Positions 48,850 to 59,270 of a stretch of 64,000 nt of DNA are shown one piece after another. The first letter of the stretch is position 1. The number at the start of each line of letters is the position of its first letter. The stretch covers positions 30,070,001 to 30,134,000 of the forward strand of contig NC_083294.1 in assembly GCF_963506605.1 (NCBI RefSeq), written 5' to 3'. Position numbers and translations under genes: made by a program. Below the pieces are notes generated by a model. It made no database searches, was not told where the DNA came from, and saw nothing but the letters and a program-made list of their open reading frames with translations. Source of the stretch: Zootoca vivipara. Lineage: Eukaryota.

Positions 48850-49650
48850 GCGCGAGCAGTTTCAGCCTTCCAGTTTGGATTGCTACTCTCCGCACTCTCG
48901 CTCCCCGCCCCGTGTGACGACAGGTAGAAATTCATCGGGTGTAGCCTTCCTTGAACGGATAATCAGGGCGCGCGAAGAGCTTGCTTATGATTCCAGCCTG
49001 CCATGCAGCTGTTAACGGAGCAGGTGTCTTTGATCGAGAAAGAAAAGGAAAAAGTCAGTTTGGTGCAGAGCGACAACCAGCCCTAGCTTCATCGTCCAGG
49101 ATAGTCCGGCTGAGTCTAGGATCCGGGGAGCTCCCCCACCCCGGACAGTGCCTGGGGCGGGGTCAAAGGGGTGGGATCTGGGGCTGGGAGGGACACGCGG
49201 GGCCGCTGCTTTGCAAACTTTGCAGAGTCTAGCCAGGACCGAGAGCCCCCGGGTGGGCTATTCCTCCTCCTCTGCTTTCCCAAAGCTTTGCAGAGCCAAT
49301 AGCTGCCGCAGATATCTGTGCGCTCTCGCAGACAGACATCCAGCGGACGGGCGCCTTCTTCCTAATCCTGTACTGCATCTCTCTTCGCGTCTGCCGACAG
49401 TTTCTCACCCGTGCCAAAGAAGTTCGTGGGGATGTCGACCGCAGATGAGGACGGCTTCCTGCTCCGGCCTTTCAAGCTGATAGCCCTGCTGTGCGCCTTC
49501 ATCGCTCTAGCCCTAGACGTGGCGGCTCTTCTGAGCCCTGCCTGGGTCACGTCGGAACGCTACTCCCGCTCCCTCTGGGTGTCTTGTATGCAAGGCCGGG
49601 ATGATGTTTGGGAGTGCAGCTCCACCCTCCAGACTGGTAAGGGCCCCCTG
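48850..49650 (+). promoter_or_regulatory. CpG-rich promoter region of the TMEM47-like gene
   Basis: Elevated CpG, GC boxes (ccccgcccc ~48903, ggggcgggg ~49154) upstream of and over the first coding exon. Confidence 0.6.
49432..49636 (+). CDS. TMEM47-like coding exon 1 (exon probably starts at 49401 after a strong acceptor)
   Basis: ATG 49432; donor G|GTAAGG at 49637; upstream tctctcttcgcgtctgccgacAG suggests a non-coding first exon (possible donor CAG|GTAGAA at 48924). Confidence 0.88.
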
Positions 49651-52600
49651 GGGAGAGTTAGAAATGCTGGGAACATGCACAAAGAGTCGGGGAGCAAGGA
49701 GAAAAGACAGGGGGTGGGCAAAGTATTGCTGTATTTATTTTTTAGGCATTTGTTTTAGGCATTTGTTAAAATCGAAATCCTGCGTCATCCCACCAAATGG
49801 GAGTTTAATGGCATCAGCTCCTGAGAACTAGAATCTACTTTTATCAACTGCATAAAGTGTTATCTTGTAGAATACTAGGGCAGGAGATGCTAAACTGAGT
49901 GGACCAGTGGTCTGACCTGGTGTAAGGCAGATTTCTGCATTGAACAGATGGAGAACATGTGCCCCCCCCCCCGCTCCCTGATGCTGTTGGACTACAAGTC
50001 CCAGCCAGCATAGCCAAGGATAATGCGAATTGTGTTCCAGCAGCATGCAAGAGGTCATATGCCAGGGGGTTGGAGGGGGGGTTAGTGTGATCTCAGGCAC
50101 CTGCTTCAGGTGCATCAGGTCTTCAGCACAGTGGTAGAGCATCCAACTTGAATGCAGAGCGTCCCAAGTTTATTCCTAGGAATCTTCAGGTGGAGGTGGA
50201 AGAGAGTCTTGCCCGGAAGCCTGGAAAGCTGCCTGCTGCCAGTCAGTGTGGACAATACTGAGCAAGATTGACCAATGGTCTGGGTTGGTGTAAGGCAGAT
50301 TCCTACGTGCCTATATGTGTGGGTTTGTTTGTGTGTATTTTAAGACTTCAATCTGCTCCTGCCACACTCCATATGCATGCATAAAACATAAGCAGTGGAG
50401 TCAGAGGGAAATACAAGGCTAGTGCTACCATTAGGCTGTGTGAGGCAATCTCCTCCATCGACAGATGCTGGGTGTGGGTGTGTTCTCTTCAGTTGGAGAC
50501 CAGAGCTGTGTCTAGGGTTGACCACCAGCAAAGAAAGTTGTTGAGCAGGTCAGATGTTAAATCAAAGAGGGGGGAGGGAGAAGCTAGCTTGGTAAAAGGT
50601 AAAGGTAAAGGGACCCCTGACCATTAGGTCCAGTTGTGACCGACTCTGGGGTTGCGCGCTCATCTCGCATTATTGGCCGAGGGAGCCGGCGTACAGCTTC
50701 CAGGTCATGTGGCCAGCATGACAAAGCCGCTTCTGGCAAACCAGAGCAGCACATGGAAACGCCGTTTACCTTCCCGCTGTAGCGGTTCCTATTTATCTAC
50801 TTGCATTTTGATGTGCTTTCGAACTGCTAGGTTGGCAGGAGCTGGGACCAAGCAACGGGAGCTCACCCCGTCACAGGGATTCGAACCGCCGACCTTCTGA
50901 TCAGCAAGCCCTAGGCTCAGTGGTTTAACCACAGCGCCACCTGGGTCCTTGGTATTGAAGCCAAAATGTCTGCATTGGACAATAAACTTTTTTGTTGTTG
51001 TGTAGACTTAGAAGGCCAGCAGCTGTATGAAGGTTGTCATAAAGAGTGTGATCCTAAATGTGACTACTCAGAAGTAAGCACATAAGATTTACCCCTCGGG
51101 TACATGGGATTGCAGCCAAAATACAGTACTGTATATATAAAATAATTGCAGTGACCATTTCTGAAGCAGCATTGATTTTGACATACCGGTAAAGTAAGTC
51201 ATAATGGCAACATGCTCATGGTGGTATCAGGGGTGGTCATATGCAATTCTTCTTTCAGTACTGTTTGTGCTAGCAGAAGTTTTGGGATGAACATACTGCT
51301 TTGTTTCCCATCGGTGCACATCACATAGCTTCCTGCTGAAATCCTGTAATTTTGCATACCATAAATGGTTTTTCTTCTTTTGGGGGGTGAGGGGAGGGGG
51401 ACAGGTAGTTGGCCTGCTCTCCTTCAGCTATGGTGCAAGCTGCCCTTGCAGATGGCAATAGTGCAGAAACAGTGAGGAAGCATCACAAGATCACTAATAA
51501 AGTGGAACTAAATGTAGTATTACTGTGCCAGTGACATGTTATGGAATACACCCTCCCCCAAAAACACCAATCTGGAAAGGCCCTAAGTTCAGATGAAGCT
51601 GTGGTTTGGGGCTGTGTATGTGTTAGTACATAGGCTCACTCAGCAGAAGGGTTTGGGTTAAAAGGAGAACTTGCCTGGTGTAAGTAAATCTGGTTTTCCA
51701 AGACTGTAAAGAAGTTCCCATTGCAGCAGTTTCCAGGGATTTTGTCTGCTGGCAAAGTAACTTGTTAGGACTGTATTCTTGGCTCTTTGGGGCATGGCCT
51801 CCTGTTCTGTTGCAAATGTCTTACTTCTGTTTTTCTATTAAAAAAATATTTTCAGGAAAGCCCAGAGGGCTGAAAGGCAGGTATCTTGGAACAGCTGTTT
51901 ATTTTTAAGGGCAGCCTGCACACACACACACACACACACATCTTTTTTCTCTTCTTCATCACCGTTGTAAGGTAGGCTGTGCAGAAATAGTGTGACTGGC
52001 CTAAGGTTACCAAGGGAATAGAGATTTGAACCTGGGTTCCACTACACAGCATGAGTTATTGGAGGCTGCAATAAAGAGCGCTCTGGTATCATATCCAAGT
52101 CAACCTCCATTGGGAGCTGGCCTGCCAGCTAATGAATCTTCAGAAATTTGCAAGCCAGCTTCAAGGGGAGCCCCGGGTACATACACGAAGGTAGCCTAGC
52201 TTCCAGTTAGGGAGGCATGAATGGTGGTTGGTACGGCAGTAGATTTCCTAGAAAGGGTTGTGGCCTTTTCATCAGGTGGAGGGGGTGGAAGTGAGACCTG
52301 CTTGCTGCCTCAGTGTAAAGTTTCAAGGTGCAGTGAATACCTCAAGTTTAAGTGTGAACCTCTTAATTTTTCCAGATTCTCTTAAAGTAGCTTGCTGTTA
52401 CCACCTTCTCCCTAGTTTATAGCATGGGGGTTACTGCCTAATGGCACAACAGGGCCAATTACCTATTGAACAAGCGCTGGCATTTGCTTTTCCTCTCCTG
52501 CAGGGTCTATTGTTTTGGCAGTAGAGCCAGAGACACATTAATCAGGAATGCAACAGGTGCTGAGGGAGGCAGCTGGGGAACTCCTTTTCTTTTCTTTTTG

Positions 52601-58600: not shown

Positions 58601-59270
58601 GGGAAGTTGTCAGCACCTTTAACAAGCTTATTGCTTATTATTATTTATTGATTTTATATTCCACCCTTCCTCCTCACAAAAGGAGCCATGGGTGGCCAAT
58701 CCCAGGATTCTTTGGGAAAGCAATGACTTTTAAAGAAGCTTCATGATGCTTTAAATGTATAGTGCAGATACAGTCAAACCTCGGTTGTCAAACGTAATCC
58801 ATTCCGGAAGCTCGTCAGACGTTCGGCTTCCGAAAAACATTTTTGGCGTTCGGGAGCCAAAAGGTTCCAAAACAGGCGTTCGGGGACCGAGGCTTGACTG
58901 TATGACCTTGGCTTAAGATAAATGTCGTGACCAGTTGGTTAACACAGAAGCAAGAACGTGGCAGACTTGGAGATCAGTTGTTCCTGATCTCCCTGGTGTT
59001 GCAAATGAGTCTCCATGGAACAAGTTTATTTTCCTTCTTTCTGTTTGGATTTCTAACAGACTCTTTTTTCTTTGTTGGATTGATCTAGTGGTTCTGCATG
59101 TCTGTGCCTTAATCCTCTACCCCATCAAATTCATCGACAGCAGCATGCTGAACAGTTACCATGAGTTCAACTGGGGCTACGGCTTAGGCTGGGGCTCTGC
59201 CGTCTTCATGCTGGGTGCTGCCATCCTTTACTGCTTACGCACAGATTTGTATGAAGATGCGTACTACTGA
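49432..59270 (+). CDS. Transmembrane protein 47-like (TMEM47/PERP, PMP22-claudin superfamily), join(49432..49636,57774..57914,59089..59270), 175 aa
   Basis: [120 protein letters not shown]. Four hydrophobic helices, W..SLW..C..C first loop, two phase-1 introns. Clearly TMEM47 family but too divergent and in the wrong neighbourhood for the ortholog. Confidence 0.9.
50595..50947 (-). mobile_element. Sauria SINE, full length
   Basis: Very similar to 24219-24558 in reverse; TSD CTTGGTA. Confidence 0.88.
56047..56345 (-). mobile_element. CR1 LINE 3' end
   Basis: Minus [41 protein letters not shown]1 tail. Confidence 0.85.
57774..57914 (+). CDS. TMEM47-like coding exon 2
   Basis: Long polypyrimidine tract plus [28 protein letters not shown]...LLFAA; donor GTACGT. 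Confidence 0.92.
58771..58900. mobile_element. Short Tc1/mariner MITE
   Basis: TA TSD; TIR CAGTCAA.CCTCGGT / ACCGAGG.TTGACTG. Confidence 0.8.
59089..59270 (+). CDS. TMEM47-like coding exon 3
   Basis: [36 protein letters not shown]...YEDAYY then TGA; AATAAA at 59478 and 59831. Confidence 0.92.

What the first reader, a model, noticed from the sequence alone, without database searches (positions are those of the whole stretch)
49432..59270. Intact TMEM47 paralog beside BRCC3, likely an ohnolog absent from human Xq28
Seen: complete 175-aa tetraspan gene with its own CpG-rich promoter, TMEM47-like intron positions and a YEDAYY C-terminus, but only roughly half to 60% identical by eye to human TMEM47. 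Known: human TMEM47 and FUNDC1 lie on Xp, FUNDC2 on Xq28, and I know of no such gene between human BRCC3 and VBP1; TMEM47 and PERP are cell-junction proteins. Inference: a whole-genome-duplication sister of TMEM47 retained in reptiles and lost in humans, i.e. an uncharacterised third junction tetraspan.
Basis: partly seen in the sequence, partly recalled or inferred. Interest (0 to 1): 0.7.

Follow-up and report, generated by a model that had tools for sequence, protein, structure and literature searches.

The report
TMEM47 twin kept in lizards
This lizard gene is an intact, spliced twin of the cell-junction gene TMEM47, likely left by an early vertebrate genome doubling, found from sharks to platypus but apparently missing in marsupials and placental mammals; it was already listed in a 2018 gene catalogue, and it likely helps organise cell junctions, which is untested.

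Summary
Real. Three exons (49432-49636, 57774-57914, 59089-59270) give a 175-aa four-helix PMP22/claudin-fold protein; RNA reads span both introns. It is not a moved TMEM47: the genome holds a separate TMEM47 (C4) and PERP (C3), and trees put the gene in its own shark-to-monotreme group. NHS-, dystrophin- and FUN14-family genes flank it as they flank TMEM47 (the first two also flank PERP), so a genome-doubling origin is likely. It is not new: RefSeq predicts this exact protein, and Hara et al. 2018 (Table S10) list the orthogroup as the 'elusive' partner of TMEM47, absent in human, dog, opossum and chicken. I found no functional study; a TMEM47-like junction/actin role is inferred (about 50%). 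Human Xq28 could not be searched.

The parts
48780..49640 (.). CpG island over promoter and exon 1; GC boxes at 48905 and 49155, CCAAT at 49296
   Evidence: GC 57.6%, CpG o/e 0.71 vs 0.27 window; motif positions (consensus matches only)
49207..49431 (+). 5' untranslated part of exon 1 (minimum extent; no upstream ATG)
   Evidence: spliced 1338-nt contig starts at 49207; another at 49206; no uATG printed
49432..49636 (+). coding exon 1: N-terminus, helix 1, first extracellular loop (W38, SLW47-49, C52, C62)
49637..57773 (+). intron 1, 8137 nt, GT..AG, phase 1; holds a high-copy repeat at about 50595-50948
   Evidence: joint read in 3 of 3 raw RNA runs
57774..57914 (+). coding exon 2, 141 nt: helix 2, short basic cytoplasmic turn, start of helix 3
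   Evidence: same 141 nt length as exon 2 of the genome's TMEM47
57915..59088 (+). intron 2, 1174 nt, GT..AG, phase 1
   Evidence: joint in 2 of 3 raw RNA runs and 1 contig set, and in 3 of 4 contig sets (not in the DNA-like X15)
59089..59270 (+). coding exon 3: end of helix 3, second loop, helix 4, tail [10 protein letters not shown], stop
59271..59855 (+). 3' untranslated region with AATAAA at 59478 and 59831
   Evidence: contigs of two studies end at 59854-59855; signals
32765..41286 (+). neighbour: BRCC3 (coding span, approximate)
   Evidence: JAB Pfam hits, BRCC36 PDB match, likely last exon found with a recalled motif
25822..27959 (-). neighbours: MTCP1 and CMC4 first coding exons
   Evidence: PF01840 E 7.7e-08, PF08991 E 0.0016 (below its cut-off)
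11428..14835 (+). neighbour: FUN14-family gene (FUNDC2 by position; name recalled), two of its exons
   Evidence: PF04930 over cut-off
503..730 (-). neighbour: factor VIII-like first exon
   Evidence: best PDB match factor VIII, E 4.3e-07, ceruloplasmin equally close

Best explanation
This is an intact, transcribed paralog of TMEM47 (annotated 'TMEM47-like' in many species) that likely arose in the early vertebrate genome doublings and likely works, as TMEM47 does, as a four-helix membrane protein at cell-cell junctions that helps organise the actin belt. Shown: gene structure, splicing, a second TMEM47 and PERP elsewhere in the genome, a separate clade older than the shark/bony-fish split, paralogous neighbours. 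Predicted: PMP22/claudin fold with a short, cysteine-bridged first loop and a tyrosine-rich tail without the claudin YV end. Inferred: one chordate VAB-9-type gene gave PERP and a TMEM47 ancestor first, then TMEM47 and this gene; it is partly redundant with TMEM47, evolves faster and was lost more than once (therians, probably neognath birds and frogs). Odds: ancient paralog 0.97; genome-doubling origin 0.85; junction/actin role about 0.5.
For: Three family loci in the genome with exon 3 as query: C19 100%, C4 64%, C3 33%. Tree of 68 rows: paralog clade 26 rows 95/88, TMEM47 clade 21 rows 100/99, each with cartilaginous fishes; PERP outside. AU tests on 31 rows reject window-in-TMEM47 (p 3.2e-05), window+own TMEM47 (p 1e-68), shark copies together (p 1.4e-05) and paralog+PERP (p 0.0026). 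Neighbours: NHS family 114 kb from this gene, 122 kb from PERP, 5.7 Mb from TMEM47; dystrophin family 1.13, 2.24 and 1.24 Mb; FUN14 35 kb and 2.5 Mb; the C4 dystrophin exon is 66 of 67 identical to the solved dystrophin chain. Pfam PF00822 30.3 bits over 26.7; model pLDDT 82.5, top folds MP20 and claudins, TM 0.66-0.74. 40 columns invariant over 46 sequences of both paralogs. Hara 2018 count it among genes with a paralog duplicated in early vertebrates. TMEM47 rescues worm vab-9 and sits at junctions (PMC3879130, PMC5727265 passages).
Against: In the 31-row LG+G4 tree the paralog clade has only 68/46 support; the paralog+TMEM47 fork is 92/83, unstarred; hagfish placement is unresolved (AU p 0.37 and 0.26), so first versus second doubling is not fixed by the tree. 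The four neighbour families were picked from recall, not blind. No localisation, tissue or knockout data exist here; run tissues were not given. Eleven or more columns differ consistently between the paralogs, including the whole tail (RTD vs NPK), so function may have diverged. PERP, in the same family, does not rescue vab-9, which shows that kinship does not guarantee the same role.
Confidence: 0.8

Rival explanations
1. Same ancient paralog, but with a role of its own away from epithelial junctions (for example a tissue-restricted membrane organiser or trafficking partner, as other members of this fold are).
For: Consistent tail and N-terminal differences from TMEM47; exon depth differs tenfold or more between three RNA samples; nearest folds include lens MP20 and TARP/GSG1L; TMEM47 itself has reported non-junction roles; kept for over 400 million years beside TMEM47 in many lineages.
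Against: Extracellular and helix-3/4 motifs are invariant between the paralogs; fold hits at 13-20% identity do not name a function; repeated loss fits redundancy.
Confidence: 0.3
2. The duplication was a local or segmental event, or belongs to the first rather than the second genome doubling.
For: Hagfish protein 1 can join either paralog; marker families were few and chosen by recall.
Against: 4 of 4 families tested have a member on both C19 and C4, spread over several Mb; paralog+PERP is rejected.
Confidence: 0.12
3. The absence from therians, neognath birds and frogs is a gap of annotation or of the searches, not loss.
For: Word-based search, 120 of 303 hits listed; clusters hide members; no genome of those groups could be searched; Hara 2018 warn of this for GC-rich regions.
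Against: With echidna as query, therian, neognath and frog rows appear only as true TMEM47 at 60-62%; clusters read in full hold 3 of 3 monotremes and 17 of 17 palaeognaths; Hara's deep search of 112 mammals and 68 birds found 1 mammal and 3 birds.
Confidence: 0.08
4. A translocated TMEM47 ortholog or a lizard-specific copy.
For: RefSeq names this protein 'transmembrane protein 47'.
Against: True TMEM47 on C4 beside dystrophin; AU p 3.2e-05 and 1e-68.
Confidence: 0.01

Closest known systems
'transmembrane protein 47-like (LOC102560818)' orthogroup AmnPhylome_0001544_sub_002 of Hara et al. 2018 (PMC5901865, Additional file 9)
   Same: Same orthogroup: two of its accessions (XP_015282019.1, XP_013919711.1) are P0472 and P0487, which fall in the window gene's clade. 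Same reading: early-vertebrate paralog of TMEM47, zero in human, dog, opossum, chicken, zebra finch, Xenopus.
   Different: A table row only; I saw no tree, synteny or function for it in the passages and files read. Sharks, caecilians, the PERP link and the neighbour families are added here.
TMEM47 / TM4SF10 / BCMP1
   Same: Same intron positions and phases, 141-nt middle exon, 53-56% identity, invariant WVT, LW-C-C, LYPIKFI, YHEF.WGYG motifs, tyrosine-rich tail.
   Different: Shorter N-terminus, RPFKL instead of TPLKL, RTD..YEDxYY instead of NPKNYEDYY; faster change in amniotes (lizard-echidna 75.6% vs lizard-gibbon TMEM47 90.1%); other chromosome; patchy distribution.
PERP
   Same: Same three-exon plan and phases, PF00822, flanked by NHS- and dystrophin-family genes.
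   Different: 29% identity, longer tail, separate clade; desmosomal and unable to rescue vab-9.
Claudins, MP20/LIM2, TARPs (PF00822 clan folds)
   Same: Predicted four-helix bundle with a small extracellular sheet; TM-scores 0.66-0.74 for the top hits.
   Different: 13-20% identity; first loop only about 34 residues; no C-terminal YV (recalled claudin PDZ motif). Not a claudin proper.

Membership tests
PMP22/EMP/MP20/claudin superfamily (PF00822) | Pfam score over the curated cut-off | tested here: met
   30.3 bits vs 26.7
PMP22/EMP/MP20/claudin superfamily (PF00822) | four membrane helices with W..LW..C..C first loop (motif recalled) | tested here: met
   helices in model; W38, W49, C52, C62 invariant; fold matches
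TMEM47/VAB-9 subfamily | groups with TMEM47 to the exclusion of PERP and shares intron positions | tested here: met
   tree 98/94-98/96, AU against paralog+PERP p 0.0026; exon plan
TMEM47/VAB-9 subfamily | junction localisation and rescue of vab-9 | not testable with these tools
   needs cells or worms
TMEM47 orthologs (strict) | falls inside the TMEM47 clade | tested here: not met
   AU p 3.2e-05; separate TMEM47 on C4
TMEM47 orthologs (strict) | lies near dystrophin (DMD) | tested here: not met
   the dystrophin-identical exon is on C4; the C19 family member is a diverged paralog
Genome-doubling ohnolog | duplication older than the shark/bony-fish split | tested here: met
   both clades hold cartilaginous fishes; AU p 1.4e-05 against joining the shark copies
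Genome-doubling ohnolog | both copies on paralogous segments | tested here: met
   4 of 4 recalled marker families on both C19 and C4, 2 of 4 also near PERP on C3; not a blind sample
Genome-doubling ohnolog | timing against the cyclostome split (first vs second doubling) | tested here: inconclusive
   AU p 0.37 and 0.26
Genome-doubling ohnolog | no further duplicate in invertebrate chordates | tested here: inconclusive
   one amphioxus cluster of 6 records seen; amphioxus genomes not searched
Claudins proper | C-terminal YV PDZ-binding end and long first loop (recalled) | tested here: not met
   ends in AYY; loop about residues 35-68
'Elusive' genes of Hara et al. 2018 | same orthogroup as a listed elusive row | tested here: met
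   shared accessions in the window gene's clade
'Elusive' genes of Hara et al. 2018 | absent from human Xq28 (no gene, possible remnant) | not testable with these tools
   no therian genome can be searched; indirect evidence

The most novel reading that the evidence does not exclude
TMEM47, this gene and PERP are three survivors of one chordate VAB-9 gene split by the two genome doublings, and the copy that therians lost is the one that keeps the older start of helix 1 (R12, F14 shared with hagfish, R12 with amphioxus). It has its own junctional job in non-therian epithelia, was dropped at least three times, and its therian loss sits at a rearrangement break between BRCC3 and the amidase gene on the chromosome that became the X.
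Probability: 0.3. Interest if true: 0.55.

Novelty: already known. Interest (0 to 1): 0.3.

Why it matters
Modest. It tidies the family: 'TMEM47' labels in fish, reptile, ratite and monotreme databases mix two ancient paralogs (this lizard protein, and ostrich, coelacanth and medaka ones, carry the plain name), which can mislead expression and orthology work. The matching NHS and dystrophin neighbours suggest that PERP, a desmosome protein, and TMEM47 are genome-doubling sisters, giving a natural three-way comparison for how adherens/tight-junction and desmosome tetraspans diverged. It is one of hundreds of such lost ohnologs and has no known phenotype.

Tried and rejected
1) 'Zebrafish TMEM47' papers might have studied this paralog, because Hara's table puts the zebrafish gene in the elusive row: rejected as unsupported, since the named zebrafish protein NP_999928.1 (181 aa) falls in the true TMEM47 clade; the paper itself (Lu 2023) is not held. 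2) VBP1 as downstream neighbour: not in this genome. 3) PDB sequence search: no relative, best E 0.36. 4) ESM Atlas: nearest clusters MP20/LIM2 and PERP, adds nothing beyond Pfam. 5) A fourth family copy: none over E 0.1 with exon 1, none with exon 3; an amphioxus query gave only weak hits, including C6 and C15 rows not followed up. 6) No RNA holder was on record in the run index; raw RNA runs laid afterwards did show splicing. 7) Name search in the supplements of PMC10208646 (4 files) found nothing; its lists may use ids only. 8) Selection was only glimpsed: of 14 codons with listed differences in run X7 (a related organism; list truncated), 11 are silent and 3 change the residue; no dN/dS. 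9) No complex prediction was run: no binding claim is made. 10) Earlier scan notes: none on this gene.
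Full report
Observation. The window holds a complete three-exon gene on the + strand: 49432-49636, 57774-57914, 59089-59270, 528 nt, 175 aa, both introns GT..AG in phase 1. A CpG island covers the start (o/e 0.71 against 0.27). The spliced protein is identical to P0209, RefSeq XP_034969197.1, labelled 'transmembrane protein 47 [Zootoca vivipara]', and 95-98% identical to Podarcis and Lacerta proteins, so the animal is a lacertid lizard. Three raw RNA runs (one study, about 6% of each read) show intron 1 spliced in 2, 3 and 17 reads and intron 2 in 0, 4 and 66 reads, and one contig covers 49207-59855 in spliced form. 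Contigs of three further runs join intron 2; a DNA-like run does not. Tissues were not given.

Protein. Pfam PF00822 scores over its cut-off. An AlphaFold2 model from 46 sequences (pLDDT 82.5, pTM 0.77) has four long helices and three short strands in the first outer loop; its best folds are MP20, claudins and TARPs at 13-20% identity. No solved relative exists by sequence. Identity is 55.7% to gibbon TMEM47, 52.9% to the lizard's own TMEM47 and 29.2% to its PERP. Human TMEM47 was not fetched.

Not a moved TMEM47. Exon 3 finds three loci in the genome: itself, C4 (64%) and C3 (33%). The C4 gene is 81-97% identical per exon to gibbon TMEM47 and has the same intron phases and 141-nt middle exon. 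In a 68-row tree the window gene sits among squamates in a 26-row clade (95/88) with sharks, ray-finned fishes, coelacanth, caecilians, monotremes, tuatara, palaeognaths and turtles; TMEM47 forms a 21-row clade (100/99) that also includes cartilaginous fishes; PERP lies outside. Rows were chosen by hand from 524 proteins held by the end; isoforms, fragments and most teleosts were left out. On 31 rows under LG+G4 the paralog clade drops to 68/46, but AU tests reject the window gene within TMEM47 (p 3.2e-05) or with the lizard's TMEM47 (p 1e-68), reject joining the shark copies (p 1.4e-05) and paralog+PERP (p 0.0026), and cannot place the closest hagfish protein (p 0.37, 0.26). So the split is older than jawed-vertebrate diversification; first versus second doubling is open on the tree alone.

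Neighbourhood. In the window: factor VIII-like exon, a FUN14 gene, CMC4, MTCP1, BRCC3, then the gene. Downstream comes an amidase gene (FAAH2 by recalled sequence), not VBP1, which is 5.3 Mb away. Four families, picked from recall of the human X and 6q maps and so not a blind sample, were located in the genome. All four have members on both C19 and C4: FUN14 (35 kb from this gene, 2.5 Mb from TMEM47), dystrophin family (1.13 and 1.24 Mb), NHS (114 kb and 5.7 Mb), myelin PLP (14.5 and 7.1 Mb). Two also flank PERP on C3: NHS at 122 kb and a dystrophin relative at 2.24 Mb. The C4 dystrophin exon matches the solved dystrophin chain at 66 of 67 residues; the C19 and C3 exons are diverged (DRP2 and utrophin by recall). 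This is the pattern expected of genome-doubling segments, with PERP as the earlier branch.

Distribution. Listed orthologs come from sharks, sturgeons, gar, bowfin, many teleosts, coelacanth, caecilians, turtles, tuatara, lizards, snakes, ratites and tinamous, platypus and echidna. With echidna as query (120 of 303 hits listed), therian, neognath and frog rows appear only as true TMEM47 at 60-62%. The monotreme cluster is 3 of 3 monotremes, two bird clusters are 17 of 17 palaeognaths, and 15 of 23 turtle-cluster members listed are turtles. No crocodilian was listed in my calls; Hara's table has two alligators. No therian, bird or frog genome could be searched, so loss is inferred. The paralog changes faster than TMEM47 in all five matched comparisons from the lizard (for example lizard-snake 78.7% vs 97.2%; the species paired differ in some). 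At 14 columns that separate the two clades, hagfish protein 1 sides with the paralog at 7 and with TMEM47 at 3, a hint that the paralog is not simply a decayed copy.

What is known. Hara et al. 2018 (PMC5901865; I saw passages, the supplement list, a name search of 12 of 19 files, and rows and part 1 of Additional file 9; six PDF files were not searched and one file is unreadable) list 'transmembrane protein 47-like (LOC102560818)' as an elusive gene beside non-elusive TMEM47: zero in human, dog, opossum, chicken, zebra finch and Xenopus; 3 birds and 1 mammal in their deeper search. Two of its accessions are in my clade. Nine paper searches listed no study devoted to the paralog; subscription papers and bioRxiv supplements are not covered. 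One fish study notes a 'transmembrane protein 47-like' raised in one electric-organ phenotype (PMC6953315, passages); which copy it is was not tested.

How it likely works. TMEM47/TM4SF10 rescues worm vab-9, sits at cell contacts and binds ADAP, with effects on Fyn and F-actin; PERP does not rescue vab-9 (passages of PMC3879130 and PMC5727265; Dong and Simske 2016 and Azhibekov 2011 are not held and were seen only as citations). Non-junction roles of TMEM47 are also reported (passages of PMC12449016 and PMC13012126). The paralog keeps the membrane core, the loop cysteines, a basic inner turn and a tyrosine-rich acidic tail, so I commit to a junction-associated, actin-organising role partly redundant with TMEM47 (about 0.5), with a distinct role as the main rival (0.3). 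All functional steps are inferred.

Verdict. Real, intact and expressed; ancient paralog of TMEM47 (0.97), likely a genome-doubling ohnolog (0.85); apparently lost in therians and probably in neognaths and frogs; already annotated and catalogued, functionally unstudied as far as my searches reach. Interest 0.3.

Noticed in passing
G000:C3:59407058-59412694 (-), loci L050 and L018: A second PERP-like gene with three exon matches lies in tandem just downstream of PERP, 49-65% identical to it per exon.
   Followed up: partly
G000:C19 as a whole; window 1-64000: The contig carries genes of the human Xq28 region (position recalled). Lacertid Z chromosomes hold genes of chicken 4p / the mammalian X (PMC6534595 passages), so this gene is probably Z-linked; not tested.
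   Followed up: no
G000:C19:30136100-30144400 (L022), just past the window end: Amidase gene with its own CpG island follows the gene; BRCC3 and VBP1 are not neighbours here, so this junction differs from the human order (recalled).
   Followed up: partly
G000:C6:42.69 Mb: A fourth NHS-family locus marks where a fourth TMEM47/PERP-family copy might have stood; no family hit was seen there.
   Followed up: partly
window 50595-50948: Very high-copy, transcribed short repeat in intron 1 with sharp ends; looks like a SINE (recalled), not classified.
   Followed up: no
window 45251-46000: CpG-rich patch between BRCC3 and the gene with a repeat-like open frame; probably a mobile element, not a promoter.
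   Followed up: no
P0322, P0354, P0373, P0448, P0449: Hagfish has at least three family members; one is labelled PERP in UniRef yet groups nearer TMEM47 in my trees.
   Followed up: partly
PMC5901865 Additional file 9, rows 230-231: The table gives zebrafish one gene in the elusive row and none in the TMEM47 row, whereas the named zebrafish protein is a true TMEM47; the row may hold a misplaced gene.
   Followed up: partly
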